Positions 3,954 to 55,847 of a stretch of 64,000 nucleotides of DNA are shown here, in pieces. Position 1 is the stretch's first letter, and each line of letters opens with the position of its first letter. Position numbers and translations under genes: made by a program. Source of the DNA: a virus. A model generated the notes under the pieces. The model ran no database searches. It was not told where the DNA came from and saw only the letters and a list, made by a program, of their open reading frames with translations. The DNA is taken from positions 87,682 to 151,681 of the IMG/VR virus record IMGVR_UViG_3300046171_000193; one strand, written 5' to 3'.

Positions 3954-4874
3954 ATGGAGTATACAATGGATAAAGCCTTCTTCGTTAACGGCGGGGCCGG
4001 AAGAGTTCTATGTGCAATTCCTGCACTAGAAAAACATATCAAAGAAAATCCAGATGCTATTATTATAGCTGAAGCCTGGCCAGAACTTTATCTAATGAGT
4101 CCTACTCTTAGAGATAAATCGTATGTTCCTACAACAAAAAATCTATTTGAAACTTTCTTAGCTAATCGAGAATGTATTAGCCCTGAGCCGTATAGGCTTA
4201 ATGCATATTATACTCAAAAATGTAGTATGTCTCAGGCCTTTGATATACTAATTAACGAACATGATGATATTCCAGAACCTATGGACTTAAATTTAGAGCT
4301 ATCTAAAAGAGATCAGGTATTCGGTTATAATTTTGTTGAAGATGCTAAAAACAATATGCGTAAGAAAAAGTCTATTGTTTTTCAGCCTTTTGGTTCAGGT
4401 GCTACACTTGAGGGAAGATTTATAATTGATTCTACAGGAAGAAGCTTTGAGTTATCTGATGTTCTTTGGTTCATTGATAAACTTAAAGAAGAATATGCTA
4501 TTATTATGATGAGCTCTTTTCCTATTCCAACTGATAAAGATCTAGGAATTATGATGCCTAAAGATTTGGGGCTTATTCAATGGGCAGCAATTGTAAATGC
4601 TACTGATGGATTTTTTGGTTGTGATTCTGTAGGACAACACTTTGCAAATGCTTTAAATAAGCCAGCAACCGTTGTAATTGGAGGAACTAATCCAGAAAGT
4701 ATTAGTTATCCTAATAATAAAGATTTTAATATATTTGATCTTGGTGAAGGAAAAAGAAAATTCTCTCCTATGAGAGTATCTTTTGATCCATCATATGATT
4801 TAAACAATGAAGGTTTAATGATAATGGATGATAAGAAAAAAAATGAAATACTTAATGTAGTGAAGGAATATTAA
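3954..4874 (+). CDS. GT9-like glycosyltransferase (ADP-heptose:LPS heptosyltransferase family)
   Basis: GGAGRVLCAIPAL N-terminus; FFGCDSVGQHFANALNKPATVVIGGT matches the GT9 DSGxxHxAxA...P motif. Confidence 0.7.
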   Translation: MEYTMDKAFFVNGGAGRVLCAIPALEKHIKENPDAIIIAEAWPELYLMSPTLRDKSYVPTTKNLFETFLANRECISPEPYRLNAYYTQKCSMSQAFDILINEHDDIPEPMDLNLELSKRDQVFGYNFVEDAKNNMRKKKSIVFQPFGSGATLEGRFIIDSTGRSFELSDVLWFIDKLKEEYAIIMMSSFPIPTDKDLGIMMPKDLGLIQWAAIVNATDGFFGCDSVGQHFANALNKPATVVIGGTNPESISYPNNKDFNIFDLGEGKRKFSPMRVSFDPSYDLNNEGLMIMDDKKKNEILNVVKEY

Positions 4875-4875
4875 G

Positions 4876-6708
4876 ATGAGTACAGGATATATTTTATCTG
4901 TTACAAGAGGACATAATGGAGGAGCTTGTCTTTTAAAAGATGGAGAAATTGTTTTTCACATAGAAGAAGAAAGGTTAACCCGTCACAAATATGATGGTGG
5001 TCCTTATGCATCTTTAATTAAAACCTTAGAATATACAAATAAGATTGATTATCTTGTTATTGCTCATACTCAGCCATTAGATCAATCTGCTTCAGTAGAC
5101 TTTTCTGGTGATGACGTCTATACAGGATTAGCAAGAAAATTAGGATTAATTGAACGACGGAGAGATACTCGCAATCACCCACAAGTGCTAGACTATTCTC
5201 ACATACACCACAAGCTTCATGCCGCTGCTGCTTTTTATAGATCGGGATGGACTGATGCAGTTGCCGTAATCGTAGATGGGGCAGGTACATTTGCAAATAT
5301 GGAATTTCAAAGCGGTATGGGTCCTAGAGCAGAAATAACATATGAAATTGAAAGCATTATTGATTGTGGATATCCACATAAGTTTGCAAACTTATATAAG
5401 CATCATGGCCATGCTGCTGATATTCCTCCAATGCTGACTCGTAATTTTCAATCTCAAGATGAGCTAGGAACTGACTCTTTTGATATGTTAGTATCTGATC
5501 GTGCAGGTATTACAAAAACATATGAGAGTGTTACGGAATATTGTGGATTTTCGGCGATTGAGGCTGGTAAAACTATGGGCTTAGCTCCGTATGGTAAGCC
5601 TAATCCAGATCTTCCTCCTATGTTTGAACCTGCATATATCGACGGAGAGAATTTTTTCTTAGCAAATCGTGGTAAATTTATACCAACATATCCTAATTCT
5701 GCTATTTATGTTGGTGGAACTAATAGGGTATCAGGTCATAATTTGCATAGACAACAAGGGCAGGATCTTACTACTTTAGAAAATAGAAGAGATGTTGCGT
5801 ATCAAGTTCAGCATGAAACACAGGCTCAAGTGCTTAGATTAATTAAAAAAGCAGTTGATATGTCTGGAAAAACTCAAGTTGTTTTATCTGGAGGATACGG
5901 ATTAAACTGTGTAGCTAATTATGAATATTTAAAAGATTTACAAGAAAAAGGCATTGAATTATATGTTGAACCTATTTCTAGTGATGCTGGTACGTGTATT
6001 GGAGGAGCTCTTCTTTGTTATCATTTAAATACTGCTATTACTGGAGAAGGTCGATATAAATTAACTAGAAGTTGCTATTTAGGTCCAGAACAAAAATATA
6101 ACTTAGATGATGTTAAATCTCTTGTTCCTCAAGATTCAGAGATAAAAGAAAATGTTAAATATTCTGATGTAGTTGATATTATTAAAGATAATACTATTGT
6201 GACTATTTTTCAAGGAAGATCTGAATCTGGTCCAAGGGCATTAGGTAATAGAAGTATATTATATAATCCTGCAGATCCTAATGGCAAAGATCATGTAAAT
6301 CAAGTAAAACGAAGAGAATATTTTAGACCGTTTGCCGGTACAATTCTTGAAGAAGACGTTCATGATTGGTTTGATTTGCGAGGCATGGAATCTAGTCCAC
6401 ATATGATGTATGCCGTAGATTGTAAAGAAGGTGTGGGAGAAAAAATTCCTTCAATTATCCACGTCGACGGAACTTGTAGAATTCAAACTGTAAACGAAGA
6501 ACAAAATCCTCACTATTATAATTTGATAAAAGAGTTTAAAAAACAAACTGGAATTCCAGTAATTTTTAATACATCGTTTAATTTAGGTGGAGAACCTCTT
6601 GTGGAAACATTAGAAGATGCAGTTAATACTCTGGTAAATTCAGCGATTGAACACTTATATTTACCAGAGTTAAATGTTCTAGTTACTATTGCCAATTCAG
6701 AGGATTAG
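4876..6708 (+). CDS. carbamoyltransferase (NodU/CmcH/TobZ family), full length
   Basis: EEERLTRHK, HHKLHA, DGAG, GKTMGLAPYG, SGGYGLNCVAN, GPRALGNRS, KRREYFRPFA, NTSFN motifs. Confidence 0.92.
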   Translation: MSTGYILSVTRGHNGGACLLKDGEIVFHIEEERLTRHKYDGGPYASLIKTLEYTNKIDYLVIAHTQPLDQSASVDFSGDDVYTGLARKLGLIERRRDTRNHPQVLDYSHIHHKLHAAAAFYRSGWTDAVAVIVDGAGTFANMEFQSGMGPRAEITYEIESIIDCGYPHKFANLYKHHGHAADIPPMLTRNFQSQDELGTDSFDMLVSDRAGITKTYESVTEYCGFSAIEAGKTMGLAPYGKPNPDLPPMFEPAYIDGENFFLANRGKFIPTYPNSAIYVGGTNRVSGHNLHRQQGQDLTTLENRRDVAYQVQHETQAQVLRLIKKAVDMSGKTQVVLSGGYGLNCVANYEYLKDLQEKGIELYVEPISSDAGTCIGGALLCYHLNTAITGEGRYKLTRSCYLGPEQKYNLDDVKSLVPQDSEIKENVKYSDVVDIIKDNTIVTIFQGRSESGPRALGNRSILYNPADPNGKDHVNQVKRREYFRPFAGTILEEDVHDWFDLRGMESSPHMMYAVDCKEGVGEKIPSIIHVDGTCRIQTVNEEQNPHYYNLIKEFKKQTGIPVIFNTSFNLGGEPLVETLEDAVNTLVNSAIEHLYLPELNVLVTIANSED

Positions 6709-40751: not shown

Positions 40752-41161
40752 TGAGTGATTGGGCTAATGACATTTATATGATGCATAATAAGTTTGGCGT
40801 CAAAGAATGGTTCGAAAAAAATAAAGATGATAAAGATCTCATGCGGAAATATATTATGTTTCGTATGCTTATGATCGGTGAAGAATATCAAGAAACATTA
40901 TCTGCTATTAATAACTCTGACGCTGAAGAAGTTGTTGATGGTTTGATTGACATGTGTGTCTTTGCTATCGGCACTCTTGATGTTATGGGAGTAGATGCTA
41001 ATAAAGCATGGGACAAAGTCTATGAAGCTAATATGGCTAAGACACCAGGTGTGAAAGTTGGTAGACCAAATAAATTCGGTTTGCCTGATTTAATTAAACC
41101 TGCCGGATGGCAAGGTCCTGATCATGATGGAAACCATGGCGATATCCCTAACACTATTTAA
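40751..41161 (+). CDS. MazG-like all-alpha NTP pyrophosphohydrolase (candidate dCTPase/dUTPase)
   Basis: EEYQE...EEVVDGLID acidic motif, VYEANMAK, LIKPAGW. Confidence 0.8.
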   Translation: MSDWANDIYMMHNKFGVKEWFEKNKDDKDLMRKYIMFRMLMIGEEYQETLSAINNSDAEEVVDGLIDMCVFAIGTLDVMGVDANKAWDKVYEANMAKTPGVKVGRPNKFGLPDLIKPAGWQGPDHDGNHGDIPNTI

Positions 41162-42065
41162 AAGCGTCTTTGATAATAAGACGCATCGTAGAATGGACTT
41201 CGAAGACTGGCAACAGTTCTCGGAGCTTTTCTACAAACTGTCTAAACAACCTTTGAAGGGAAAGAAAGATGCGCAACTTATATCACCAGCTGTATACGTT
41301 CCTGATACAACTAGGGCCAACAAGAATGTGGATGCTTGGGCAGGTTGGGCTGCTATTGATGTTGATGATCACGCTTTTAAAGGCAAACTAGAAGATGAAC
41401 TTAATGAGCGCTTTGGTAATTACACATATGTGTGTTATAGTACCGCTAGTAGCACTCATGAATTTCCAAAGTTTCGTGTGGTTTTCCCGCTTAAAAGTTC
41501 GGTTGAGCAAGATAAGATCAAGCACTTCTGGTATGCGCTCAACTCAGAGCTTGGTAACATGGCAGACAAACAGACTAAAGACTTATCTCGTATGTATTAT
41601 ATTCCTGCAACTTACGATAACGCTTATAACTTCATCTTCTCTAATGATAATGGCGAATATGTTGATCCAGCCAAACTCATGGGAAAATATGAGTATGCAC
41701 AAAAATCAAGCAAAAACTTTATCGACAGACTCCCTGAAGCTTTACAAAAACAAGTTCTTGAACACAAAAAATCAAAACTAGATAATACAAATATAGTATG
41801 GACAAGTTATCGTGACTGCCCTTTCTGGCCAAAGAAATTAGCTAGCGAATACCAGATTATATCTAATACAGGTTGGTATCATAAAATGTATCAGATAATG
41901 GTTGCGGTTGCGGCAAGAGCTGTTGAACGACAGTATCCAATCACATCACATGAGATAACTAATCTATGTCGAGAGTTTGATATGGGAACCGGTAACTGGT
42001 ATGAGAATCGTCCTATGGACGTAGAAGCAGATAGGGCATTAGAATATGTGTACAAAAACATTTAA
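41136..42065 (+). CDS. primase-polymerase (AEP-like) protein
   Basis: LISPA, WAAIDVD (DxD), YSTASS...PKFRVVFPL, SRMYYIP, helical C-terminal domain. Confidence 0.6.
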   Translation: MAISLTLFKSVFDNKTHRRMDFEDWQQFSELFYKLSKQPLKGKKDAQLISPAVYVPDTTRANKNVDAWAGWAAIDVDDHAFKGKLEDELNERFGNYTYVCYSTASSTHEFPKFRVVFPLKSSVEQDKIKHFWYALNSELGNMADKQTKDLSRMYYIPATYDNAYNFIFSNDNGEYVDPAKLMGKYEYAQKSSKNFIDRLPEALQKQVLEHKKSKLDNTNIVWTSYRDCPFWPKKLASEYQIISNTGWYHKMYQIMVAVAARAVERQYPITSHEITNLCREFDMGTGNWYENRPMDVEADRALEYVYKNI

Positions 42066-42756: not shown

Positions 42757-42946
42757 AGAAATAGATTTATTAAAAAGAAATATTCAGGATTTGCAAAGAC
42801 AATTACAGGATGCTTATATTAGAATCAAGGAATTAACTGGTGAGATTCCTGATGGAACTGGTCATGGTCCAGCTATTGTAGATGATGGGTGGGCAGATGA
42901 AACTGATATTCAAATCATGTCTACTAGTAGAGGGCACAACCAATAA
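42743..42946 (+). CDS. hypothetical coiled-coil protein
   Basis: Coupled ORF. Confidence 0.5.
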   Translation: MTKYEEIDLLKRNIQDLQRQLQDAYIRIKELTGEIPDGTGHGPAIVDDGWADETDIQIMSTSRGHNQ

Positions 42947-43731
42947 TGTTAAGAGTTATTGCTGGACCATGTCAACACGAATCGCTAGAGCAATCAATGG
43001 AGATTGCCAAGCATTGTAAAGATGTATGCGATAAGTATGATATTGAATACATCTTTAAAGCTAGTTTTGATAAGGCAAATAGAACATCTCTTAATGGTGA
43101 ACGAGGACCAGGACTGGTGCCAACAGCACATAGTTTTGTAGATATTAAACAAGAGATTCCTGGATTAAAAACATTAACAGATGTTCATAGTGTTGAACAA
43201 ATCAGAACGATTAGAGATCAGTTTAATTATTGCATTGATGTGTTACAGATACCAGCATTCTTATGTAGACAAACCGATATAATTAGAGAAGCTTGTCGTA
43301 CAGATAAGATAGTTAATATTAAGAAAGGCCAGTTCTTGGCACCTTGGGATGTGGCTGGCATTCTAAGTAAAACAAAAGATGCTAAAGAAGTCTGGATAAC
43401 AGAAAGAGGAACGAGTTTTGGTTATAATAATCTTGTTGTTGATTTTAATGGTTTGCAGTACATGCTTGATAACTATAGCGTTCCGATTGTATTTGATGCA
43501 ACACACTCGTGCCAGAAACCTGGTGGAAGCGGTGAAAGTTCAGGTGGCAATCGTGCTTGGGTCCCAGGGCTTACTCGTGCTGCTTCTGCTATGGGTGTAT
43601 CTAACTTCTTCTTAGAAGTACATCCAGATCCAGATAACGCACCAAGTGATGGACCCAACATGTTACGACTAGATAATTTTGAAGAGGTGATAAATGATAT
43701 CGACCGCTATTCTTATACCGGCTCGTTATGA
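42946..43731 (+). CDS. kdsA: KDO-8-phosphate synthase
   Basis: IAGPC, FKASFDKANRTS, QIPAFLCRQTD, KKGQFLAP, ERGTSFGY, DATHS, DGPN. Confidence 0.95.
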   Translation: MLRVIAGPCQHESLEQSMEIAKHCKDVCDKYDIEYIFKASFDKANRTSLNGERGPGLVPTAHSFVDIKQEIPGLKTLTDVHSVEQIRTIRDQFNYCIDVLQIPAFLCRQTDIIREACRTDKIVNIKKGQFLAPWDVAGILSKTKDAKEVWITERGTSFGYNNLVVDFNGLQYMLDNYSVPIVFDATHSCQKPGGSGESSGGNRAWVPGLTRAASAMGVSNFFLEVHPDPDNAPSDGPNMLRLDNFEEVINDIDRYSYTGSL

Positions 43732-44371
43732 GTCAAGTAGATTTCCAGGCAAACCACTCGTAGATCTTGGTGGTATGACTATGATCGAGCGTGTATATAA
43801 TACATGTATCGGAACAGGATTAGACACTTACATTCTTACTGATGATCTCCGTATTTTTGATTTGTTTGGTCCTCACAAATGCTGGATTGAGAAAGCAGAA
43901 TATGCAAACGGAACTGAAAGATGTTCTGGCGCATTAAGATGGAACGCCTTAAATCGGTATGATCAATTTATTAATGTCCAAGGTGATATGCCAGATGTAA
44001 CTGCCGATATGATTGAAAAAACCCGAATACAACTAATGAAGTATAAGGTATCAACAGTTTGTACAATGATGCCTGAAGAAGAACAGAACAACCCTAATTC
44101 CGTTAAATTAGTAAGAGGCAATGGTAAGTGCTTATGGTTTGGTAGGGGAATGACTGGTTATGGTGATTGGCATTTAGGCATATATGGTTATCAACGCGAA
44201 GCGTTACAATCATATTCAGACTTGATTGGTACTCGTGAAGAACAAGTTGAGCAATTAGAACAATTGCGTTGGCTGAAAAATGGCTGGGACATTAGTGTTC
44301 ATCCAGTAATATTTAACGGAATAGAAATTAACACACCAGAAGATGCAAGGAAATGGAATGATAGCAGGTAA
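43694..44371 (+). CDS. kdsB: CMP-KDO synthetase
   Basis: IPARYESSRFPGKPL, GTER, NVQGD, HLGIYGY, LEQLRWL. Confidence 0.92.
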   Translation: MISTAILIPARYESSRFPGKPLVDLGGMTMIERVYNTCIGTGLDTYILTDDLRIFDLFGPHKCWIEKAEYANGTERCSGALRWNALNRYDQFINVQGDMPDVTADMIEKTRIQLMKYKVSTVCTMMPEEEQNNPNSVKLVRGNGKCLWFGRGMTGYGDWHLGIYGYQREALQSYSDLIGTREEQVEQLEQLRWLKNGWDISVHPVIFNGIEINTPEDARKWNDSR

Positions 44372-44699
44372 AGTTTGGGGACAAACAGAACTCGTAGAAG
44401 CAAATGGAGCTTTAGAGTTTCATCGTATTGAGATGAATAAAGGCGGAGTATGCTCTAAACATCTTCATGAATTTAAGTGGAATGGTTTTTATGTTGAGTC
44501 AGGACAAATGCTTATTCGTGTCTGGCAAAATGATTACAATTTAATTGATGAAACTATTTTAAATCCAGGAGATTACACAAAAGTTAAGCCAGGTGTTTAT
44601 CATCAGTTTGAATGTTTAGAAGACGGTGTTGCATTTGAATTGTATTGGGCAGAATTTAATCATAACGATATTAAACGAGAAACAGTAGGCCACGCGTGA
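44358..44699 (+). CDS. cupin (sugar isomerase-like)
   Basis: GKVWGQT, CSKHLHEFKWN, PGVYHQF. Confidence 0.75.
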   Translation: MIAGKVWGQTELVEANGALEFHRIEMNKGGVCSKHLHEFKWNGFYVESGQMLIRVWQNDYNLIDETILNPGDYTKVKPGVYHQFECLEDGVAFELYWAEFNHNDIKRETVGHA

Positions 44700-45118
44700 A
44701 GGTAGGATTTACAGCATCTACATTTGATTTGCTTCATGCCGGTCATATTGCTATGCTCCGAGAAGCAAAATCAGTCTGTGACTATTTAATTTGTGGCTTA
44801 CAAATAGATCCCACGTTAGATAGGCCTAAGAAAAATAGTCCTGTTCAATCGATTGTAGAACGACAGGCTCAACTCGCTGCAATAAAATATGTCGATGAAG
44901 TAATTATTTATTGTACAGAATCAGAATTATGTGATATAATAAACATGTATCCAATTGATGTAAGGATATTGGGTGAAGAGTACAGAGATAAAGATTTTAC
45001 TGGTAAAGATGAATGTCGTAAACGTGGCATTCAACTTTACTTCAATAAACGAGACCATAGGTTCTCGACGTCTGATTTAAGGAAAAGAGTACAGTATGCA
45101 AATGACAGCAGTCCGTGA
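44696..45118 (+). CDS. cytidylyltransferase (TagD/glycerol-3-P cytidylyltransferase-like)
   Basis: STFDLLHAGH, RILGEEY, HRFSTSDLR. Confidence 0.85.
   Translation: MKVGFTASTFDLLHAGHIAMLREAKSVCDYLICGLQIDPTLDRPKKNSPVQSIVERQAQLAAIKYVDEVIIYCTESELCDIINMYPIDVRILGEEYRDKDFTGKDECRKRGIQLYFNKRDHRFSTSDLRKRVQYANDSSP
44912..44940 (+). promoter_or_regulatory. internal early promoter TGTACA-N17-TATAAT upstream of gp42
   Basis: Perfect match to the motif, inside the cytidylyltransferase CDS. Confidence 0.6.
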
Positions 45119-45779
45119 CATTCGACAATTTTTTATTGATGAATTAAAAGACGAAGCATTTACAATCGATAAGACCGGCGCCAAGACAATAGAGTTGATT
45201 GGCGCATCTTTCATTGCAGATGAACCGGCTATTTTTGGCGAAGTTAATTATGATTATGTCCAAGAAGAATTAGATTGGTATGACAGCCAGTCTACAAATA
45301 TTAATGACATTCGTGATGAACCACCACAAGCCTGGAAGTATGCTGCGAATAAGCATGGTGAAATTAATTCTAATTACGGACACCTTATCTTTTCAGACAA
45401 ATATTATAACCAATATGGCTGCGTGCTGGATGAATTACTAGAAAATCCTGACGGTCGACGTGCTTCCATGATTTACAATAGACCGTCTATTTGGATGGAG
45501 TATAATGAAAATGGAAAATCGGATTTTATTTGTACTAACAGCGTCACTTACTATATTCGTGATAATATATTACATTCTGTAGTTCAGATGCGTTCTAATG
45601 ATGTTGTGTTTGGTTATAAAAATGATTATGCATGGCAACGTGAGGTAATGAAAAGATTAGTCAGAGATTATAATGCTCTAAGTACTTACGACGCAAATAA
45701 CGTAATTGAAGAAGGACACATTACTTGGCAAGTACAAAACCTACACGTCTATGAAAGGCATTTTCACCTTGTCAACTAA
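45096..45779 (+). CDS. gp42: dCMP hydroxymethylase (T4 gp42 orthologue)
   Basis: DKTGAKTIELIGASFIADEP, GEINSNYG, SDFICTN (catalytic Cys), MRSNDVVFGYKNDYAWQ (Asp at the dCMP-specificity position), LHVYERHF. Confidence 0.9.
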   Translation: MQMTAVRDIRQFFIDELKDEAFTIDKTGAKTIELIGASFIADEPAIFGEVNYDYVQEELDWYDSQSTNINDIRDEPPQAWKYAANKHGEINSNYGHLIFSDKYYNQYGCVLDELLENPDGRRASMIYNRPSIWMEYNENGKSDFICTNSVTYYIRDNILHSVVQMRSNDVVFGYKNDYAWQREVMKRLVRDYNALSTYDANNVIEEGHITWQVQNLHVYERHFHLVN

Positions 45780-46206
45780 GTGGGATCATCGGTATTTAGA
45801 AGTAGCCAGAGTTGTAGGAACTTGGTCTAAAGATCCATCTACGCAGATCGGTGCGGTCGCTGTTGGACTTAAAGGTCAAATACTAGCACAAGGTTATAAT
45901 GGATTTGCACGAGGGATTCTTGACGATGTAGATAGGTACGAAGATAGACCGACTAAATACAAGTACATTGTTCATGCGGAACAAAACTTAATTTACAATG
46001 CAACTTACAATGGTGTGTCTTTAGACAAATCTATCTTATACGTAACAGGCTTACCGGTATGCTCTGAATGCGCTAAAGGAGTTATTCAGGTTGGTATACA
46101 AAGAGTTGTAATGCCTAAAGACTTTGACATTAAAGGATGGGGAGATTCATGGGAATTATCTGCATCTATGTTTAGAGAAGCCGGCGTTTTATATGAGTTT
46201 ATATAA
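45769..46206 (+). CDS. cd: dCMP deaminase
   Basis: WSKDPSTQIGAV, GYNG, HAEQN, PVCSEC; TTG start overlapping the gp42 end. Confidence 0.9.
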   Translation: MSTKWDHRYLEVARVVGTWSKDPSTQIGAVAVGLKGQILAQGYNGFARGILDDVDRYEDRPTKYKYIVHAEQNLIYNATYNGVSLDKSILYVTGLPVCSECAKGVIQVGIQRVVMPKDFDIKGWGDSWELSASMFREAGVLYEFI

Positions 46207-46301
46207 TGGATGATGAAGTATTATTGCTACTAGCTTTGATGGCAGTTATCTTTGGCGGTACGTTAATTATTAATTGGATATTTTGGGGAATAGCCGGATG
46301 A
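46206..46301 (+). CDS. 31-aa hydrophobic peptide
   Basis: TAATG and ATGA overlaps on both sides; single TM. Confidence 0.45.
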   Translation: MDDEVLLLLALMAVIFGGTLIINWIFWGIAG

Positions 46302-47254
46302 ACGTAATTACAAATCCTATATCAAATATTCCAAAGAATGAGAAGTCGCATGTTCATGGCTGGTCGCAGTTATGGCGTGATCAACTTAGTGCCTTTATTG
46401 ATCACAAATGTACTCCACAAATAACAAAAGCAGATGTTGTTTATATAGATCATGGTGCTAACTTTGGCGGCAGTTTAAATTTATTTGGCGGAGCTAATAA
46501 AGAAGTTTATGATAGAATTAATCTTGTAATGTCATGTTCTAATATTGTTTCTCTTGATTGGGATATGCCTGACTATGGGGCAATGTTAAAGAAAAGACTT
46601 TCTGCTGCGACAACCTATAAAGGTATTACGGACAAGTGGTGTGATTCTGTTTCTAAACGAATTAAAAGTATTACATCTCTTAAGCAGAAGGATTTAAAAA
46701 CCGATGGCATTATCTTTGGAGATTCACATACAATCGCTTACGGCGGGTCTGGCGATCGCGTGTACCGTACTGATGGTAAAACTTTATTTGGTACTATTCG
46801 AAGAGGATTACGTACTGAGATATCGGAATCAGTCGGATGCCTTACATTATGCATGGGCTCAATTGACATTAGGCATCATGTTTTACGTCACGGTGATTTT
46901 TCTCTTAGATATACAATCAAGGAATATGTAAGACAAGGCAATGAATTAGCTGACGATGTATGGTTTACAGCTCCAGTACCGGTAGAGTTTGAAGGCAGAC
47001 GTATACCTAAATCAGGATTTTATAAGAAGACTCCATTCTTTGGTTCATGGAAAGAACGTTGGGATCTTACTAACGAATTTATTGACGTACTTAATGATGA
47101 GTCTAAAGGCAAAGTTATTATGCCACCAAAAGAATGGTATATAATGGATCCTGAAAAATACGCAAATACTTATATGGAACACGGTTCTAGTTTTCATATA
47201 GCACCTCCGTATTATAGACGTAACGATTGGGGAGTATCACCTCTTGCCGCATAA
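46298..47254 (+). CDS. uncharacterised protein with SGNH-like C-terminal domain in the DNA-modification locus
   Basis: IFGDSH...G...DIRHH...ExxSSFHIAP; overlaps the PLP enzyme gene. Confidence 0.6.
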   Translation: MNVITNPISNIPKNEKSHVHGWSQLWRDQLSAFIDHKCTPQITKADVVYIDHGANFGGSLNLFGGANKEVYDRINLVMSCSNIVSLDWDMPDYGAMLKKRLSAATTYKGITDKWCDSVSKRIKSITSLKQKDLKTDGIIFGDSHTIAYGGSGDRVYRTDGKTLFGTIRRGLRTEISESVGCLTLCMGSIDIRHHVLRHGDFSLRYTIKEYVRQGNELADDVWFTAPVPVEFEGRRIPKSGFYKKTPFFGSWKERWDLTNEFIDVLNDESKGKVIMPPKEWYIMDPEKYANTYMEHGSSFHIAPPYYRRNDWGVSPLAA

Positions 47255-48128
47255 TAACCACGTCATAGATAGAGTCAATAAAGACATTAATCCGTTTTAT
47301 GGAGATCCAAAAGAATATTATTTAGAACTAGCAAAAGATTGGGAGGATCCTTATGGAATACCAGATGTTAGAGAACATGATACTATTCGTGTTGTTCGTG
47401 ACGATCGCTTGGTTGGTTCTAAAGTTCGTGGTGGTGATTGCCTTATCAGCAGTCTCCCTGATCATATCGATACTATCGTTTATGTTCAACCCCGTACTGG
47501 TCTTGCTGGTGTTAGCATTCTTGATGTGGCAAAGCGTCACGGAAAAGAAGTCATGCTCTTCATGCCCTCAAGTAAACGAATCAGTGAGCATCAAGCCTGC
47601 TGTATTGAACGGGGAGCACGTACTAGTTTCCATAGAATAGCAGCTATGCCTAACCTTAATCTGATTGCAAAGAAATGGGCAGATGAAAGAAAGAACGCTT
47701 TCTTTGTACCGCTAGGACTTAAACATGAAATGGTAACCGCTGGCATTGTAAAGGCTGCTTCTAAGATAAGAGAACCTGAAGAAGTATATACTGCCACGTC
47801 CACGGGCGTGCTCACACGGGGGCTGCAGATTGCTTGGCCTAATGCCAAGTTTACTTCTGTTTGTGTGTCACGTAATATGAAAGCTGGTGAATTAGGTATT
47901 GCAGAAGCCGTATCAGAACCATTAGCATTTACGGCTGCAGAGAAAAAAAATAATCTTCCACCATTCCCGACTATAGATACCTACGATGGTAAGGTATGGA
48001 AATATATTCCAAAGAATACAGGACGTGATATTTTATTCTGGAACGTTGGTAAAGAACCGATATTACAGAATCAAGACTTACCAAATACAATAGATTCATA
48101 TAGAGATTGGGAAAAGAATGTGGCTTAA
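47244..48128 (+). CDS. PLP-dependent enzyme, fold type II (type associated with phage base hypermodification)
   Basis: VVRDD...GSKVR (PLP Lys), STGVLTRGL phosphate loop, YDGKVW, ILFWNVG. Confidence 0.75.
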   Translation: MPHNNHVIDRVNKDINPFYGDPKEYYLELAKDWEDPYGIPDVREHDTIRVVRDDRLVGSKVRGGDCLISSLPDHIDTIVYVQPRTGLAGVSILDVAKRHGKEVMLFMPSSKRISEHQACCIERGARTSFHRIAAMPNLNLIAKKWADERKNAFFVPLGLKHEMVTAGIVKAASKIREPEEVYTATSTGVLTRGLQIAWPNAKFTSVCVSRNMKAGELGIAEAVSEPLAFTAAEKKNNLPPFPTIDTYDGKVWKYIPKNTGRDILFWNVGKEPILQNQDLPNTIDSYRDWEKNVA

Positions 48129-49138
48129 CGAAGAAGCAATTGACGTTCTTGTAAACTACTATTATCCGAAAGCAGGCTGGTTACAAGACAATGTAAACTG
48201 GGGTCCATTAGATTATGAAGGACCGGAAGCAAATGAAATTATTAACGACCCTCTTCTGCAGAAGATTGACATCTATGATTGTAAAACAAGAAACGCTGCA
48301 AGGCTTTTCAAATGTATTACAAGATTTAAGATACGGATCTAAAACTCCTAAGTGGAGATGGCAGAAAGAAGATAGACGTAAGATCTCAGCGTCTAATGAC
48401 GATATTAGTTGGTCTATTGAAACATGGCTATATACATTTCTTTGTCATCGAATTACTGGGTCAGGAGCTTCATTTGAAAACGATCATGGTTATCGTAACA
48501 ATATAATTCAGCATTGGGGTAAGCATAGAGACATTAAAGATATGGCAGAAGATTTAGTTGAGACTAAAGCCTCTGGAAAACCAATGTTTACTTCTATAGG
48601 TAATCAACCTCCAGCTCCTAAGAAGGGAGTTAGTAATGTTGACTTTATGGTAAAATGAGTTGCCAGAAGTTATTAATAAATTTACAGATTTTCTTTTACT
48701 AAAAAGAAGAGGTCATAAAGAAATAGTTGATCATTTAAACGAACATAATAAAAAAGCAGGCCATCGTAAATTTAATTTTCAATATGCAGGCTTTTTCTAT
48801 GGATTGCTCTGACTATTTTCCTGAAAATCGCCGATGTAGATTCTCATACATATTTAGGCAATAACGCAGTAAGGTGTATGAAAAAATTATCTAAAGGTTG
48901 GAAAGATGATGACTTTATGGATCTACTAAGAGAAAAAACTGGTGGCAAACCAAAAGACCTTGAAGATGTTATGTGTGATTTTGTTAGATTCGGGCAAAAC
49001 TATGTGCCACGAGGTAATGGAACATTTGATCATATTCCTTCGACGTTAGCAAATGCATCTGGATGGGAATCTGGATGGGAACAAAGGCAAGGAACTCCGC
49101 CTATTAGAGGTGTACAACTTGACGAATTTATGGTATAA
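48118..49138 (+). CDS. amino acid:DNA transferase / aGPT-Pplase-like (HhH glycosylase-fold) protein, indel-broken
   Basis: Fragments RNAAGF, LCHRITGSGASF..DHGYRN, FTSIGNQPP, DLEDVMCDFVRF; adjacent to the PLP enzyme. Confidence 0.6.
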
Positions 49139-49139
49139 T
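49111..49139 (+). promoter_or_regulatory. early promoter TGTACA-N17-TATAAT; predicted leaderless transcript
   Basis: Only 5 nt separate the -10 box from ATG 49145. Confidence 0.65.
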
Positions 49140-49144
49140 AACAT

Positions 49145-49996
49145 ATGTTAAAAATTACAATCATTGGCCACGGCTTTGTTGGCAAAGCAATCGACTACGC
49201 ATTTCAAGATGACGTAGAAAAACAAATCATTGATCCTAAGTATGACGTTCATTTACACGATGTAAGATTATCTGCTGACGTAACGTTCGTTTGCGTTCCA
49301 ACGCCAATGCATGAACATGGACAATGTGATGTAAGCATTCTTCAAGATGTTTTAAAGAAAATTGCTCAACGAAGAAGTGGACTCATAGTTGTCAAATCTA
49401 CAGTACCACCTGATCAAATAGAAAATTTATTTCGTGGTTCTGCTAAACATAGAATGGTTTATAATCCAGAATTTTTGACAGAAAAAAATGCAAATGAAGA
49501 TATTATAAATCCGTTTGTACATATTTTTGGTGGCGATAACGAGGCTACTGAAAAGCTGGAAAGATTTTATAAAGAATATAGTATATGTAAGCCATGTCCA
49601 GTATCTCGTATGTCAGCAACAGATGCTAGCTTTGTTAAGTATGGAATCAATACTTTCTTAGCAACTAAACTTACATTTTTTAACGAATTTTATGATGCAA
49701 TAAAAAACTTTGGAGGTAATTATGGTCGTATCGCAAACGCAATTGGTACTGATCCAAGAATTGGGCACTCCCATACTCGTGTCCCTGGTTTTGACGGCAA
49801 GCGTGGTTTTGGCGGTGCTTGTTTTCCAAAAGATGTTTCCGCCTTCATAAACTTTACAACTCAAACTCCCTTACTAGAATATGTTATGGATCGTAACAAT
49901 CAATATCGATCCGAATATGAAAAGGATGATCGAGAAATAGAACAAAACATTCAGTATGATATGACTGGCCAAACAGCACACGTGAATGAACGATGA
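49145..49996 (+). CDS. ugd: UDP-glucose/GDP-mannose 6-dehydrogenase (short form lacking the C-terminal domain)
   Basis: GHGFVG, CVPTP, KSTVPP, NPEFL, GFGGACFPKD. Confidence 0.88.
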   Translation: MLKITIIGHGFVGKAIDYAFQDDVEKQIIDPKYDVHLHDVRLSADVTFVCVPTPMHEHGQCDVSILQDVLKKIAQRRSGLIVVKSTVPPDQIENLFRGSAKHRMVYNPEFLTEKNANEDIINPFVHIFGGDNEATEKLERFYKEYSICKPCPVSRMSATDASFVKYGINTFLATKLTFFNEFYDAIKNFGGNYGRIANAIGTDPRIGHSHTRVPGFDGKRGFGGACFPKDVSAFINFTTQTPLLEYVMDRNNQYRSEYEKDDREIEQNIQYDMTGQTAHVNER

Positions 49997-50943
49997 AGAT
50001 ATTCATAACAGGAATATCAGGGTTTATAGGATTCCACTTAGCCAGAGAACTTAAAGCCTACGGTCATGATGTCTGCGGTTGTGATAATTATAACCGCATG
50101 TATGATCCATCTCTAAAAATATCTCGATACAAGATTTTAGAGATGTCAAATATTCCTGTTGAGAATGTCGATATAAGTCCTCAACCTGGCGTCAAACGAT
50201 TAAGCGAAGATATGATTGAAGACTGCGACGTTATTGTACATTTAGCAGCTTGGGCCGGTGTAAGACACTCATTAGAACAACCAAATGTTTATACACAAAA
50301 TAATATAATGGGAACACAAACCATTATAGATATTGCTGAGAAGCTAAACATTCCTGTAGTGTATGCTTCCTCATCAAGTGTATATGCAGGTCAAACGCCG
50401 CCATTCATGGAAGACATGAGTTTTACGCATCATCTAAATCCTTATGCTTGGAGTAAATATGTTAATGAATGCCAGTTCAAACATAGTAACGTACCTTCGT
50501 CAATCGGCTTCAGATTTTTTACAGTGTATGGTCCTTATGGACGGCCTGACATGGCACTTCATGGATTTACGAACAACATTATAAAAGATGAACCAATAGA
50601 AGTTTATGGTCATGGTGATATGTCACGTGATTTTACATATGTACAAGACATCGTAAATGGTGTACAATTGTTAATAGATAAAGTTTCTAAAATAAATGAT
50701 CATCAAATCTATAATATTGGTAGTGGTGAATCAGTTCCGCTTATGAGTTTTGTAAGACTCATAGAAGAAAATTTAGATCGCAAAGCAAAGATTAATTATG
50801 TTGATATGCATCCAGCGGATATTCGACATACTTTAGCTGATATAACAGAAATAAAAAGATTAGGCTATCGACCGATGACTTCTATTGAAACCGGTATTCG
50901 AAGCTTTATTAGCTGGTACAAAGATTATTATCAGAAGAACTAA
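49993..50943 (+). CDS. NAD-dependent epimerase (UDP-glucuronate 4-epimerase-like)
   Basis: TGISGFIG, HLAAWAGVRHS, YAWSK, RFFTVYGPYGRPDMA, RDFTYV. Confidence 0.88.
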   Translation: MKIFITGISGFIGFHLARELKAYGHDVCGCDNYNRMYDPSLKISRYKILEMSNIPVENVDISPQPGVKRLSEDMIEDCDVIVHLAAWAGVRHSLEQPNVYTQNNIMGTQTIIDIAEKLNIPVVYASSSSVYAGQTPPFMEDMSFTHHLNPYAWSKYVNECQFKHSNVPSSIGFRFFTVYGPYGRPDMALHGFTNNIIKDEPIEVYGHGDMSRDFTYVQDIVNGVQLLIDKVSKINDHQIYNIGSGESVPLMSFVRLIEENLDRKAKINYVDMHPADIRHTLADITEIKRLGYRPMTSIETGIRSFISWYKDYYQKN

Positions 50944-51658: not shown

Positions 51659-52705
51659 ATGTCAATAATGGATAAACTCAAAAAGAACTCTAAGTTAAAA
51701 AATACGGAGGTTCTTTCTGAGTCAAAATTCTTTAACGAAAAGGATATGACTCCAACAGATGTGCCAATGGTAAATGTGGCACTATCTGGATCTGTCGATG
51801 GCGGTTTAGCTTCGGGCCTTACTGTTCTTGCAGGTCCATCAAAACATTTTAAAACGTCATTCGCTCTACTAATGGCTGCAGCATATCTTAATAAACATAA
51901 AGATGCTGTTATGCTATTTTATGATTCTGAGTTTGGTTCACCTCAAGCTTATTTTGAACAATTTGGTGTTGATACATCTAGAGTCCTTCACACTCCTATT
52001 ACAAATGTAGAAGAACTCAAATTCGATATGATGGGCCAACTAGAAGGTCTTGAGCGCAAAGATAAAGTTATCGTTGTTATCGATTCAATTGGTAACTTAG
52101 CATCTAAAAAAGAAATGGAAGATGCTTTAAACGAAAAGTCAGTAGCTGATATGTCAAGAGCAAAAGCTCTTAAAGGATTATTCCGAATGGCAACACCATA
52201 TCTTGCTATGAAAAATATTCCAATGCTTGCTGTAAATCATACGTATATGGAGATTGGATTATTTCCAAAAGCTATTGTCGGTGGTGGCACAGGCATTTAC
52301 TACTCAGCAGATAATATATGGATTATTGGTCGTCAACAAGATAAAAAAGGCACTGAGGTTCAAGGTTATCATTTCGTTATTAATGTGGAGAAATCAAGAT
52401 ATGTTAAAGAAAAGTCTAAAATACCTATTACCGTTAGTTGGGATGGTGGTGTTCGTAATTATAGTGGGCTCCTTGATGTCGCTCTCGCAGGCTCTTACAT
52501 CATTAAACCATCGAACGGCTGGTATGCACGAGTCGATCAAACAACTGGAGAGTATGGTCCAAAAGTTAGATACGACCAAACCTTAGAAAAAGAATTCTGG
52601 GATCCTATCTTTGCTGAAACTGATTTCAAAGAATTTATTAAAAAGCAATATACGATAGGTCATAAAGAACAGGTATCGATGGATGAAATCGTAGAAGAAG
52701 CATGA
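51659..52705 (+). CDS. uvsX: RecA-like recombinase UvsX
   Basis: AGPSKHFKT, YDSEFG, DSIGNLAS, GGGTGIYYSAD. Confidence 0.95.
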   Translation: MSIMDKLKKNSKLKNTEVLSESKFFNEKDMTPTDVPMVNVALSGSVDGGLASGLTVLAGPSKHFKTSFALLMAAAYLNKHKDAVMLFYDSEFGSPQAYFEQFGVDTSRVLHTPITNVEELKFDMMGQLEGLERKDKVIVVIDSIGNLASKKEMEDALNEKSVADMSRAKALKGLFRMATPYLAMKNIPMLAVNHTYMEIGLFPKAIVGGGTGIYYSADNIWIIGRQQDKKGTEVQGYHFVINVEKSRYVKEKSKIPITVSWDGGVRNYSGLLDVALAGSYIIKPSNGWYARVDQTTGEYGPKVRYDQTLEKEFWDPIFAETDFKEFIKKQYTIGHKEQVSMDEIVEEA

Positions 52706-55197: not shown

Positions 55198-55847
55198 AGG
55201 TAAGATTAATTGGTTACACTCAACCACCAGAAGATATCGTCGGTCTCGACGATCTACAAGACATCGTCGCGTATTGTGCCCGTGTCTCCAACCCATCCAA
55301 CCAAATCAACTCAGAGACATCGGGAAAACTCCTCGACTACCTCATCAAGCACAAACACTGGTCACCGTTCGAAATGTGCTCGGCCACGCTCGAAGTCGAA
55401 ACGACAAGAGATATTGCGAGACAGTTCCTCAGGCACAGGTCGTTTTCCTTTCAAGAGTTTAGCCAGCGTTATGCTGATATTCGTTCTTTTAATAATTCTT
55501 TTGTGATACGTGAGGCAAGACTTCAAGACGAAAAGAATCGGCAAAATAGCGTAGCTAATACAGATAAGAAGCTTTCTATGGAATGGGACGCTAAACAAAA
55601 TAAAGTAATAAAAGAAGCTAAAGCTGCTTATAATTGGGCAATAGAAAATGGAATCGCAAAAGAACAAGCAAGAGCAGTGTTGCCAGAAGGTAACACCGTT
55701 AGTAAGCTCTATGTTAATGGCACCATTCGTAGCTGGATACATTATATCGAGCTCCGTTCTGCAAATGGGACACAACTTGAACATATGGAATTGGCAAGAG
55801 AAGTCGGACAAACAATAGCAAAGATTTTTCCATATTTTGCAGAGTGA
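55194..55847 (+). CDS. thyX: flavin-dependent thymidylate synthase
   Basis: HWSPFE, RQFLRHRSFSFQEFSQRY, EQARAVLP. Confidence 0.95.
   Translation: MKVRLIGYTQPPEDIVGLDDLQDIVAYCARVSNPSNQINSETSGKLLDYLIKHKHWSPFEMCSATLEVETTRDIARQFLRHRSFSFQEFSQRYADIRSFNNSFVIREARLQDEKNRQNSVANTDKKLSMEWDAKQNKVIKEAKAAYNWAIENGIAKEQARAVLPEGNTVSKLYVNGTIRSWIHYIELRSANGTQLEHMELAREVGQTIAKIFPYFAE

What the first reader, a model, noticed from the sequence alone, without database searches (positions are those of the whole stretch)
45096..49138. Candidate new cytosine hypermodification system: dCMP hydroxymethylase paired with amino acid:DNA transferase and PLP enzyme
Seen: five enzyme-like genes linked by overlaps: gp42-like, dCMP deaminase, SGNH-like unknown, fold-type-II PLP enzyme and an aGPT-Pplase/AADT-like gene. 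The synthase has MRSNDVVFGYKND, with Asp at the position of T4 gp42 D179 (dCMP-specific) rather than the Asn of ThyA (N177). Known: AADT plus PLP decarboxylase modules in phages such as ViI and M6 act on 5-hydroxymethyl-uracil, whereas gp42 phages glucosylate hmC. Inference: this phage either attaches an amino acid-derived group to hmC, a chemistry I do not know to be characterised, or makes hmdUMP by an unusual route (hmdCMP then deaminase). A separate ThyX suggests thymine is kept, which favours the cytosine option. The AADT call is from memory of motifs and the gene is indel-broken.
Basis: partly seen in the sequence, partly recalled or inferred. Interest (0 to 1): 0.9.

Follow-up and report, generated by a model that had tools for sequence, protein, structure and literature searches.

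The report
Amino-acid-type hypermodification cassette for phage hydroxymethylcytosine
An uncultured marine T4-like phage couples the T4 enzyme that makes hydroxymethylcytosine to relatives of the enzymes that attach amino acids to thymine in other phages. Its DNA therefore probably carries a decorated cytosine that has not been described.

Summary
Window 45096-49138 encodes a T4 gp42 orthologue (PDB 1b49, E 5.5e-75) that keeps the catalytic Cys and the dCMP-selecting Asp. It is followed by a dCMP deaminase, an SGNH-fold protein, a PLP enzyme and an AADT-like gene.

The PLP enzyme falls in the same PHROG as M6 gp52, the decarboxylase that works on DNA-borne amino-acid adducts, and its lysine aligns with gp52 K36.

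The last gene has no Pfam hit. A model of its intact orthologue matches the PaMx11 amino acid:DNA transferase best of 48,161 solved chains. It carries E-D-x-x-C where that enzyme has its active-site E-T-x-x-C.

The four frameshifts are errors of this record. Contigs from four seawater studies are identical except that they lack the four extra bases.

gp42, SGNH, PLP and AADT-like genes travel together as a cassette in about 80 viral contigs. They sit where T4 has its beta-glucosyltransferase. In distant relatives the SGNH and AADT-like proteins are fused. No 5-hmdU-type DNA kinase was found.

Most likely this is post-replicative, amino-acid-derived hypermodification of hmC. The product is unknown, and so is the route from hmdCMP to hmdCTP (no gp1/gp56 homologue found).

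The flanking sugar genes are variable and not part of the cassette. The scan noted this module before on other genomes.

The parts
45096..45779 (+). dCMP hydroxymethylase, orthologue of T4 gp42 (227 aa)
   Evidence: PDB 1b49/1b5d E 5.5e-75 over residues 6-226. The Cys (FICTN), the Asp three residues before it and the D179 equivalent (YKND) are all kept. About 53-56% identity to T-even gp42. Far from the 9iqu/9iqc 'thymidylate synthase' chains (E 4e-9), which I take, without having checked, to be the 5-hydroxy-dCMP synthase type of PMC13326640.
45706..46206 (+). dCMP deaminase (T4 cd-like); start codon uncertain; accessory to the cassette rather than core
   Evidence: Pfam dCMP_cyt_deam_1 2.4e-16, phrog_174 2.6e-37. 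In the second gene order it lies about 5 kb from the cassette, and it was not found within the fetched stretch of some loci.
46274..47254 (+). SGNH/GDSL-fold enzyme with an N-terminal ~130-aa extra domain (phrog_13881); likely start at 46298
   Evidence: AF2 pLDDT 85.6. Foldseek finds sialate O-acetylesterase and GDSL esterases at prob 1.0. All 50 best VIA rows are SGNH/GDSL proteins, Z up to 11.5, covering residues ~133-313. Invariant GDSH, G-x-ID-x-x-HH and S-x-H. Fused N-terminally to the AADT-like domain in P0144, P0147, P0153, P0216, P0168, P0191 and P0240.
47244..48128 (+). Fold-type II PLP enzyme, homologue of M6 gp52 (PLP-dependent decarboxylase acting on amino-acid adducts in DNA)
   Evidence: phrog_7093 at 1.4e-34; M6 gp52 hits the same PHROG at 2.2e-159. 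hhalign against M6 gp52: prob 96.4, E 1.3e-9, 217 columns. Invariant K60 aligns with gp52 K36, the proposed PLP lysine (PMC8989533). M6 gp52 hits this gene directly by tblastn in 33 loci.
48118..49138 (+). AADT-like DNA transferase of the HhH glycosylase fold. It is 338 aa once the four spurious inserted bases (48300, 48652, 48788/9, 48828/9) are removed.
   Evidence: Indels located. Model of the intact orthologue L006:5776-6792 has pLDDT 87.6. [quoted passage not shown] Best of 48,161 PDB chains is 8z2m PaMx11 gp46, Z 9.3. E281-D282-x-x-C285 registers with E243-T244-x-x-C247.
41124..42065 (+). Context: DNA primase (gp61-like), upstream border of the slot
   Evidence: phrog_9765 at 1e-52.
42946..45118 (+). 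Context, not core: KDO-8-P synthase-like, CMP-KDO synthetase-like, cupin and small cytidylyltransferase-like genes
   Evidence: Pfam and PHROG hits. Found in only 3-16 of 80 related loci.
49145..50943 (+). Context, not core: UDP-glucose dehydrogenase-like gene and SDR nucleotide-sugar epimerase/dehydratase
   Evidence: Pfam and PHROG hits. Found in 16-23 of 80 loci. Kept in phage C48C1, which lacks gp42 and the cassette.
51659..52705 (+). Context: UvsX recombinase, downstream border of the slot
   Evidence: Pfam T4_UVSX_C and RecA.
55251..55832 (+). Context: ThyX flavin-dependent thymidylate synthase
   Evidence: PF02511 at 1.6e-45, G000:C1:142932-143513.

Best explanation
This is a four-gene cassette (gp42, SGNH-fold enzyme, PLP enzyme, AADT-like enzyme) that gives the phage a hypermodified cytosine.

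Step 1, well supported: gp42 turns dCMP into 5-hydroxymethyl-dCMP. Its incorporation into DNA is inferred by analogy with T4. The kinase and dCTPase for that route were not found.

Step 2, inferred from fold, motif and homology: after replication the AADT-like enzyme flips hmC out of the helix. Cys285 adds to C6, with Glu281 as acid and Asp282 reading the N4 amino group. The exocyclic methylene that results is captured by an amino acid.

Step 3, inferred from homology to M6 gp52: the PLP enzyme decarboxylates the DNA-borne adduct. This leaves an aminoalkyl-type group on C5, as in the 5-NeOmdU and 5-NedU thymidine pathways.

Step 4, speculative: the SGNH enzyme stands where the 5-hmdU DNA kinase stands in the thymidine pathways. 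It either makes an O-acyl leaving group on hmC or trims an ester intermediate.

The likely role of the modified base is protection of virion DNA from host nucleases.
For: - gp42 orthology with all specificity residues kept. 55 of the 56 gp42-homologue matches in the related contigs and this genome show the Asp motif.
- The PLP enzyme shares phrog_7093 with M6 gp52. hhalign gives prob 96.4, E 1.3e-9, with the lysines aligned.
- AADT-like fold: BFVD AADT-domain protein TM 0.80, E 7e-14. PaMx11 gp46 is the best solved chain, Z 9.3, followed by HhH glycosylases.
- The best ungapped profile window between the two families puts EDxxC on ETxxC. It uses the same offset as the ends of the structural alignment, and 1% of shuffles reach its score. 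The motif is kept in nearly all 71 family members.
- gp42, SGNH, PLP and AADT-like genes co-occur in every related locus with enough flank, in two gene orders. They recur with an Asp-type TS homologue on an unrelated contig (L095); a second unrelated contig carries the fusion beside a 293-aa unannotated gene and a TS-family gene that could not be read, because no DNA was returned for it.
- SGNH and AADT-like proteins are one polypeptide in seven distant relatives.
- The cassette is absent as a block from the closest GenBank phage, C48C1. It fills the slot that holds beta-glucosyltransferase in T4.
- The gene is intact in nature.
- Aeromonas phages 44RR, 31 and 25 have gp42 but no glucosyltransferase (PMC2993671). 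They carry an SGNH plus HMUDK_hel-like fusion.
Against: - There is no chemical evidence; no isolate exists.
- The AADT-like family does not hit Pfam ADDT PF18724, and HMM and hhalign comparisons with M6 gp51 are not significant. Homology therefore rests on a predicted structure plus a short motif. Z 9.3 is only moderate for an all-helical protein.
- Known AADTs need a phosphorylated substrate, and no 5-HMUDK kinase or helical domain was found.
- No gp1 dNMP kinase, gp56 dCTPase, MazG or thymidylate kinase homologue was found in this 83%-complete record or in four related partial records. How hmdCMP reaches DNA is therefore open.
- Whether the SGNH enzyme is a hydrolase or a transferase, and what its substrate is, remain unknown.
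Confidence: 0.65

Rival explanations
1. The target is hydroxymethyluracil, not hmC. hmdCMP made by gp42 would be deaminated by the adjacent dCMP deaminase to hmdUMP, and the cassette would then run a ViI/M6-type thymidine pathway.
For: All characterised AADT and PLP decarboxylase pairs act on hmU derivatives (PMC8989533). A dCMP deaminase sits directly after gp42 in this gene order, and one also appears on the distant P0144 contig.
Against: T4 itself has both gp42 and cd, so the pairing is ordinary. The deaminase is displaced by about 5 kb, or not found within the fetched stretch, in many related loci that still hold the cassette. The family has E-D-x-x-C, whereas all seven Pfam-ADDT thymine enzymes examined have E-T-x-x-C. 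ThyX is kept. No 5-HMUDK is present.
Confidence: 0.07
2. The SGNH, PLP and AADT-like proteins do not modify DNA bases. They would be auxiliary metabolic or host-envelope genes (for example O-acetyl esterase and amino-acid metabolism), or act on free nucleotides, and merely sit beside gp42.
For: No Pfam assignment for two of the three. Sugar and LPS-type genes flank the locus. SGNH enzymes usually act on carbohydrates or lipids.
Against: The closest relatives of the fold are a DNA transferase and DNA glycosylases. The PLP enzyme is homologous to a DNA-acting decarboxylase. Linkage to an Asp-type TS homologue is strict across unrelated backbones. The sugar genes vary independently and persist in C48C1 without the cassette.
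Confidence: 0.12
3. The final modification is a sugar. hmC would be glycosylated with an acidic or unusual sugar made by the neighbouring KDO, UDP-glucose dehydrogenase and epimerase genes, with the AADT-like protein acting only as a DNA-binding module.
For: Nucleotide-sugar genes lie on both sides. Phage cytosine glycosylation with phage-made NDP-sugars is known (PMC13326640).
Against: No glycosyltransferase was detected among the annotated genes of window 41-53 kb. The weak glycosyltransferase hits on P0191 and P0240 were replaced by clear SGNH matches. The sugar genes occur in only 3-23 of 80 related loci and are present in C48C1, which has no gp42.
Confidence: 0.08
4. In this particular phage the pathway is dead because the AADT-like gene is a pseudogene, so the DNA carries plain hmC.
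For: Four frameshifts in the record.
Against: Contigs from four runs and four studies are identical to the window and lack all four inserted bases. All 79 other loci are intact. Substitutions against the orthologues appeared to fall mostly at third-codon positions when the alignment was read by eye; this was not counted.
Confidence: 0.03

Closest known systems
Thymidine hypermodification pathways of phages M6, PaMx11 and ViI (5-HMUDK kinase, AADT of Pfam ADDT PF18724, PLP decarboxylase M6 gp52 / ViI gp226; PMC8989533, PMC11472151)
   Same: A TS-family hydroxymethylase supplies a 5-hydroxymethylpyrimidine. A helical enzyme of the HhH glycosylase fold carries a Glu-x3-Cys active-site motif. A fold-type II PLP enzyme of the same PHROG as M6 gp52 is present. 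The genes are clustered.
   Different: The base is cytosine (Asp-type gp42) rather than uracil. The AADT-like protein is too diverged for Pfam ADDT and has E-D-x-x-C instead of E-T-x-x-C. There is no P-loop DNA kinase and no HMUDK_hel protein. An SGNH-fold enzyme is the obligatory third partner and is often fused to the transferase.
T-even hmC pathway (gp56, gp42, gp1, alpha/beta-glucosyltransferases)
   Same: An orthologous gp42. T4-like replication genes around it. The modification genes lie between gene 42 and uvsX, where T4 has beta-gt.
   Different: No glucosyltransferase and no detectable gp1 or gp56. The hmC is predicted to be decorated with an amino-acid-derived group rather than glucose.
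MT/TET phage contigs with a P-loop kinase and aG/PT-PPlase next to TET (Burke et al. 2021, PMC8256090)
   Same: A proposed, uncharacterised further modification of 5hmC in DNA by a glycosylase-like transferase.
   Different: There hmC is made post-replicatively by a methyltransferase plus TET, at specific sites, and a kinase is present. Here hmC comes from gp42 at the nucleotide level, and an SGNH enzyme takes the place of the kinase.
Aeromonas T4-like phages 44RR2.8t, 31 and 25: ORF233c (795 aa)
   Same: The N-terminal domain is homologous to the SGNH protein here (about 30% identity, E 1e-36). The C-terminal helical domain gives a weak HMUDK_hel hit. These phages have gp42 and gp56 but no glucosyltransferase (PMC2993671).
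   Different: The helical domain is of another type, with no ED..C motif. No PLP partner was found in those phages. The function is untested.

Membership tests
T4 gp42 dCMP hydroxymethylase | Full-length similarity to T4 gp42 rather than to ThyA or to 5-hydroxy-dCMP synthases | tested here: met
   1b49 E 5.5e-75 over residues 6-226. The next families are at 4e-9 or weaker (9iqu/9iqc, MilA, ThyA).
T4 gp42 dCMP hydroxymethylase | Catalytic Cys148, Asp179 (dCMP selection) and an acidic residue at the ThyA L143 position | tested here: met
   FICTN, KND and SDF-I-C align with T4 FMCTN, RND and SDF-M-C. The meaning of these features is taken from PMC13326640.
Amino acid:DNA transferase (Pfam ADDT PF18724, aGPT-Pplase clade 2) | Match to the Pfam model | tested here: not met
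   No hit at E<=1 for the intact orthologues, nor for 10 more distant family members. M6 gp51 scores 1.4e-46. hmmsearch and hhalign against ADDT proteins are not significant.
Amino acid:DNA transferase (Pfam ADDT PF18724, aGPT-Pplase clade 2) | Two-lobed helical HhH-glycosylase-like fold of PaMx11 gp46 | tested here: met
   8z2m_A is the top hit of 48,161 chains: Z 9.3, rmsd 3.7 A, 203 residues. BFVD AADT-domain protein TM 0.80. Caveat: this rests on a predicted model, and the Z is moderate for a helical protein.
Amino acid:DNA transferase (Pfam ADDT PF18724, aGPT-Pplase clade 2) | Essential Cys and neighbouring Glu (PaMx11 E243, C247) | tested here: met
   Invariant E281 and C285. The best ungapped profile window pairs 279-298 with 241-260 at the structural offset, and 1% of shuffles reach its score. 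No residue-level structural superposition was available.
Amino acid:DNA transferase (Pfam ADDT PF18724, aGPT-Pplase clade 2) | Works with a 5-hmdU DNA kinase that supplies a phosphorylated substrate | tested here: not met
   No PF18723 match in the record. M6 gp54 and gp55 find nothing by tblastn in the record or in the 81 related loci searched.
DNA-acting PLP decarboxylase (M6 gp52 / ViI gp226, phrog_7093) | Family membership and the PLP-binding lysine | tested here: met
   phrog_7093 at 1.4e-34. M6 gp52 is in the same PHROG. hhalign prob 96.4, with K60 aligned to K36. Decarboxylase activity itself is not testable here.
SGNH/GDSL hydrolase superfamily | SGNH fold with the GDS(H) block I serine and a C-terminal catalytic His | tested here: met
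   All top-50 VIA rows are SGNH, Z up to 11.5. Invariant G141-D-S-H144 and S298-x-H300. The usual D-x-x-H aspartate is replaced by Ser. Pfam Lipase_GDSL appears only as sub-threshold hits on the fused relatives.

The most novel reading that the evidence does not exclude
A kinase-independent route to an amino-acid-derived cytosine (for example an aminoethoxymethyl- or aminoalkyl-cytosine), carried by abundant marine myophages. In this reading an SGNH-fold enzyme replaces the DNA kinase of the thymidine pathways as the activating or partner step. A cytosine-adapted (E-D-x-x-C) branch of the AADT fold does the transfer on hmC in DNA.
Probability: 0.4. Interest if true: 0.9.

Novelty: new variant of a known kind. 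Interest (0 to 1): 0.8.

Why it matters
In the literature searched here, the characterised amino-acid-type DNA hypermodifications are on thymidine, and the described cytosine hypermodifications are sugars or sugar-like groups. This cassette predicts a new family of cytosine bases and a new activating chemistry.

It is common. About 300 (AADT-like) to 1,500 (PLP) protein clusters were found in marine metagenomes. This exact stretch occurs in 20 seawater runs from 17 studies. No hit was found in 50,697 deposited phage genomes.

Such DNA would resist many restriction enzymes and probably some CRISPR nucleases. It could bias virome sequencing. It would also offer new enzymes for site-selective labelling of 5hmC.

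The Aeromonas phages that carry the related SGNH fusion are cultured, so they give an immediate experimental entry point.

Tried and rejected
- Pfam, PHROG and PDB sequence searches of the four broken fragments and of the intact 338-aa orthologue found nothing.
- tblastn of the fragment and of the whole protein against 50,697 phage records found no match.
- megablast of 12 kb against the phage collection found no match.
- hhalign of the family against M6 gp51 and against a 7-member ADDT alignment, and hmmsearch of a 71-member profile against M6 gp51, were all non-significant.
- A profile of the PLP family against the PDB gave only non-significant hits. All nine were fold-type II PLP enzymes.
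- The weak glycosyltransferase hits on the fused relatives P0191 and P0240 were rejected after BLASTP showed their N-terminal halves are SGNH-like.
- Complex prediction of the SGNH protein with the AADT-like protein returned no verdict, score 0.00.
- The idea that gp42 here is an RB69-type 5-hydroxy-dCMP synthase was rejected on similarity (PMC13326640).
- Searches for T4 gp1, gp56, MazG and thymidylate kinase in the record and its relatives found nothing. All these records are incomplete, so absence is not shown.
- Literature searches found no description of this gene combination.

Full report
**Setting.** The window is bases 87682-151681 of a 151.7-kb IMG/VR virus record estimated to be 83% complete. 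The genes around the finding are T4-like. A gp61-type primase lies at 41124-42065, UvsX at 51659-52705 and ThyX at 55251-55832. The closest deposited phage by UvsX (78% identity) is phage C48C1, family Kyanoviridae.

**The observation.** ORF listing and family scans confirm five consecutive + strand genes.
- 45096-45779 is a clear orthologue of T4 dCMP hydroxymethylase. Against PDB 1b49 it scores E 5.5e-75 over residues 6-226. The printed alignment shows the catalytic Cys (FICTN against FMCTN), the Asp three residues before it, and MRSNDVVFGYKND against T4 MRSNDVVFGFRND, so the D179 equivalent is Asp.
- The 2026 paper on RB69 and DLP3 shows that some TS homologues carrying these same substitutions make 5-hydroxy-dCMP instead (PMC13326640). 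Those enzymes resemble MilA. The protein here is 53-56% identical to T-even gp42 and matches the 9iqu/9iqc 'thymidylate synthase' chains only at 4e-9. I therefore read it as a hydroxymethylase.
- 45706-46206 is a dCMP deaminase.
- 46274-47254 is phrog_13881, with no Pfam hit.
- 47244-48128 gives a sub-threshold PALP hit but phrog_7093 at 1.4e-34.
- 48118-49138 is broken over frames.

**The broken gene is an artefact of the record.**
- A scan of IMG/VR with the longest fragment returned 80 loci. In 79 of them the gene is a single open frame of about 338 aa.
- DNA alignment with three close orthologues shows four single-base insertions in the window.
- Logan contigs of four seawater metagenome runs from four different studies were laid on window 47900-49300. 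Contigs with zero substitutions lack exactly one base at 48300, at 48652, at 48788/9 and at 48828/9.
- The same strain therefore exists with an intact gene, and the frameshifts are sequence errors. I used the intact orthologue L006:5776-6792 (about 97% identical in protein in the unbroken parts) as a proxy.

**What the last gene is.**
- Sequence methods see nothing. There is no Pfam, PHROG or PDB hit, even with a profile. About 300 homologous clusters all lack annotation.
- An AlphaFold2 model built on 28 sequences is confident (pLDDT 87.6, pTM 0.87).
- Against predicted viral structures the three best hits are uncultured-phage proteins at TM 0.73-0.80 and 28-29% identity. [quoted passage not shown] Weaker hits go to Pplase1 and to 5-hmdU DNA kinase helical domains.
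- In an exhaustive comparison with 48,161 solved chains the best is 8z2m, the 5-PmdU glycinyltransferase gp46 of phage PaMx11 (Z 9.3, rmsd 3.7 A, 203 residues). It is followed by queuine salvage proteins and HhH DNA glycosylases.
- In PaMx11 gp46 the flipped base sits between Cys247 and Trp146, and Glu243 and Thr244 hold the ion bound to thymine O4 (PMC11472151). In M6 gp51 and ViI gp247 the Cys and the Glu are essential (PMC8989533).
- The family here has invariant E281, D282, C285 and D286.
- I compared a 71-member profile of the family with seven Pfam-ADDT proteins. The best ungapped 20-column window is DLEDVMCDF... on EVETVLCKW... (279 on 241). That is the same offset of 38 as the ends of the structural alignment (296 on 258). 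Only 1% of column shuffles reach its score.
- The E-D-x-x-C motif is kept in nearly all members, including the fused forms.
- Conclusion: it works like an AADT. It fails the Pfam ADDT model, so I do not file it as a member of that family.
- The Thr-to-Asp change next to the Glu parallels the Asn-to-Asp switch that turns ThyA into a dCMP enzyme. That reading is my inference.

**The PLP enzyme.**
- M6 gp52 is the PLP-dependent decarboxylase that converts C-alpha-glycinylthymidine in DNA to 5-NedU (PMC8989533). It belongs to the same phrog_7093 (2.2e-159).
- A profile of the family here aligns to gp52 with probability 96.4 and E 1.3e-9 over 217 columns. The invariant Lys60 in VVRDD..GSKVRG falls on gp52 K36, the proposed Schiff-base lysine, and the two share a C-terminal PFP..YD.K.W...FWN.G block.
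- M6 gp52 also finds this gene directly by tblastn in 33 loci.
- Other phage homologues lie inside a ParB-methylase protein of Erythrobacter phage R6L and next to ParB/Srx genes in Microcystis phage Mae-JY30. These are again DNA-modification contexts.

**The SGNH protein.**
- The model (pLDDT 85.6) has an SGNH/GDSL domain at about residues 133-313. Foldseek finds sialate O-acetylesterases and GDSL esterases. All 50 best rows of the exhaustive search are SGNH proteins, Z up to 11.5, and they include O-acetyltransferases such as OatA and PatB.
- GDSH, G-x-ID-x-x-HH and S-x-H are invariant.
- This protein and the AADT-like protein are one polypeptide in seven distant relatives: P0144, P0147, P0153, P0216, P0168, P0191 and P0240.
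- In Aeromonas T4-like phages a homologous SGNH domain is fused to a different helical domain that gives a weak HMUDK_hel hit. Those phages have gp42 and gp56 but no glucosyltransferase, and the fate of their hmC has been an open question since 2010 (PMC2993671).

**Cassette behaviour.**
- Across the 80 loci, gp42, SGNH, PLP and AADT-like genes are together wherever the flank allows. They occur in two orders: gp42-cd-SGNH-PLP-AADT and gp42-AADT-PLP-SGNH.
- The KDO, UGDH and epimerase genes occur in only 3-23 loci. The deaminase is sometimes about 5 kb away and sometimes not found within the fetched stretch.
- One unrelated short contig (L095) carries the SGNH-AADT fusion beside a PALP gene, an Asp-type TS homologue and a MazG-like gene. 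A second, for which no DNA was returned, carries the fusion beside a 293-aa unannotated gene, a TS-family gene, a dUTPase_2 gene and a dCMP deaminase.
- Phage C48C1 has primase, epimerase, UGDH and UvsX in the same order but lacks gp42, cd and the three enzymes. The sugar genes therefore belong to the backbone, and the rest is an insertable unit.
- In T4 the gene between 42 and uvsX is beta-glucosyltransferase, followed by a homing endonuclease. The cassette sits in the slot of the hmC-decorating enzyme.

**Mechanism and its gaps.**
- The most economical reading is the thymidine scheme transposed to cytosine. hmC is incorporated through gp42. The AADT-like enzyme then uses Cys addition at C6 to form an exocyclic methylene that an amino acid captures, and the PLP enzyme decarboxylates the adduct.
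- First gap: the thymidine enzymes need a phosphate leaving group. No 5-HMUDK kinase or helical protein is found in the record or in any related locus. The SGNH enzyme, which is fused to the transferase just as the kinase is fused to its helical domain, is the obvious candidate for making another leaving group (an O-acyl ester) or for processing an ester. From memory, C5-methyltransferases can substitute the hydroxyl of 5hmC with thiols without prior activation, so activation may not be required at all.
- Second gap: no gp1, gp56, MazG or thymidylate kinase homologue was found in this record or in four related partial records. None of those records is complete.

**Rivals.**
- The hmU route through the deaminase is unlikely for the reasons above.
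- A non-DNA function is hard to square with the fold, the gp52 homology and the strict linkage to gp42.
- A sugar end-product is not supported, because the sugar genes vary independently and no glycosyltransferase was seen.
- The pseudogene reading is contradicted.

**Novelty.**
- The held literature describes AADT and PLP chemistry only on thymidine (PMC8989533, PMC11472151). It contains only a hypothesis that kinase plus aG/PT-PPlase might act on TET-made 5hmC (PMC8256090). I found no description of gp42 combined with SGNH, PLP and an AADT-like gene.
- The family is absent from 50,697 deposited phage genomes but abundant in seawater.
- Earlier notes of this scan describe the same module on other genomes. 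They agree with what I tested here independently.

Noticed in passing
window 48300, 48652, 48788/9, 48828/9: Four single-base insertion errors are concentrated in one 1-kb gene of the record. The neighbouring ~12 kb shows no frame breaks against its relatives. Run X11 holds two co-existing variants here, so the errors may come from consensus-building over a microdiverse region. Other genes of the record could carry similar errors.
   Followed up: partly
window 42946-45118 and 49145-50943: KDO-8-P synthase-like, CMP-KDO synthetase-like, cupin, small cytidylyltransferase (phrog_7878), short UDP-glucose dehydrogenase-like and SDR epimerase genes flank the cassette. They vary among relatives. The epimerase and UGDH genes persist in phage C48C1, which has no gp42, so they look like envelope-sugar auxiliary genes rather than DNA-modification genes.
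   Followed up: partly
L001 (Aeromonas phage 44RR2.8t) 5995-8382, with a Na+/solute symporter gene at 4402-5925: The 795-aa ORF233c fuses an SGNH domain homologous to the one here with a helical domain that gives a weak HMUDK_hel hit. It occurs in cultured phages that have gp42 but no glucosyltransferase. This is a testable proxy for what the SGNH enzyme does to hmC.
   Followed up: partly
L083 (Erythrobacter phage R6L gp1) 5001-5675; L084 (Microcystis phage Mae-JY30) 4986-5696: Homologues of the PLP enzyme are embedded in a ~810-aa 'DNA modification methylase' (R6L) or stand next to two ParB/sulfiredoxin genes (Mae-JY30). This suggests further DNA-modification systems that use this PLP family.
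   Followed up: no
G000 whole record and G001-G004: No homologue of T4 gp1 (dNMP kinase) or gp56 (dCTPase) was found in G000 or in G001-G004, and no MazG or thymidylate kinase homologue in G000 (not searched in G001-G004), despite a gp42 orthologue. All five records are 39-86% complete, so this is unexplained rather than shown.
   Followed up: partly
L097 (phage C48C1) 5295-6179: The closest deposited relative carries a DNA methyltransferase between DNA polymerase and primase, and lacks the gp42 cassette. The two lineages may use alternative DNA-protection strategies.
   Followed up: no
L006 3291-3854 and 1168-1749: Close relatives carry extra ORFs of 187 aa and 193 aa in the cluster (the 187-aa one between cd and SGNH). 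Neither has a Pfam or PHROG hit, and neither is present in the window.
   Followed up: no
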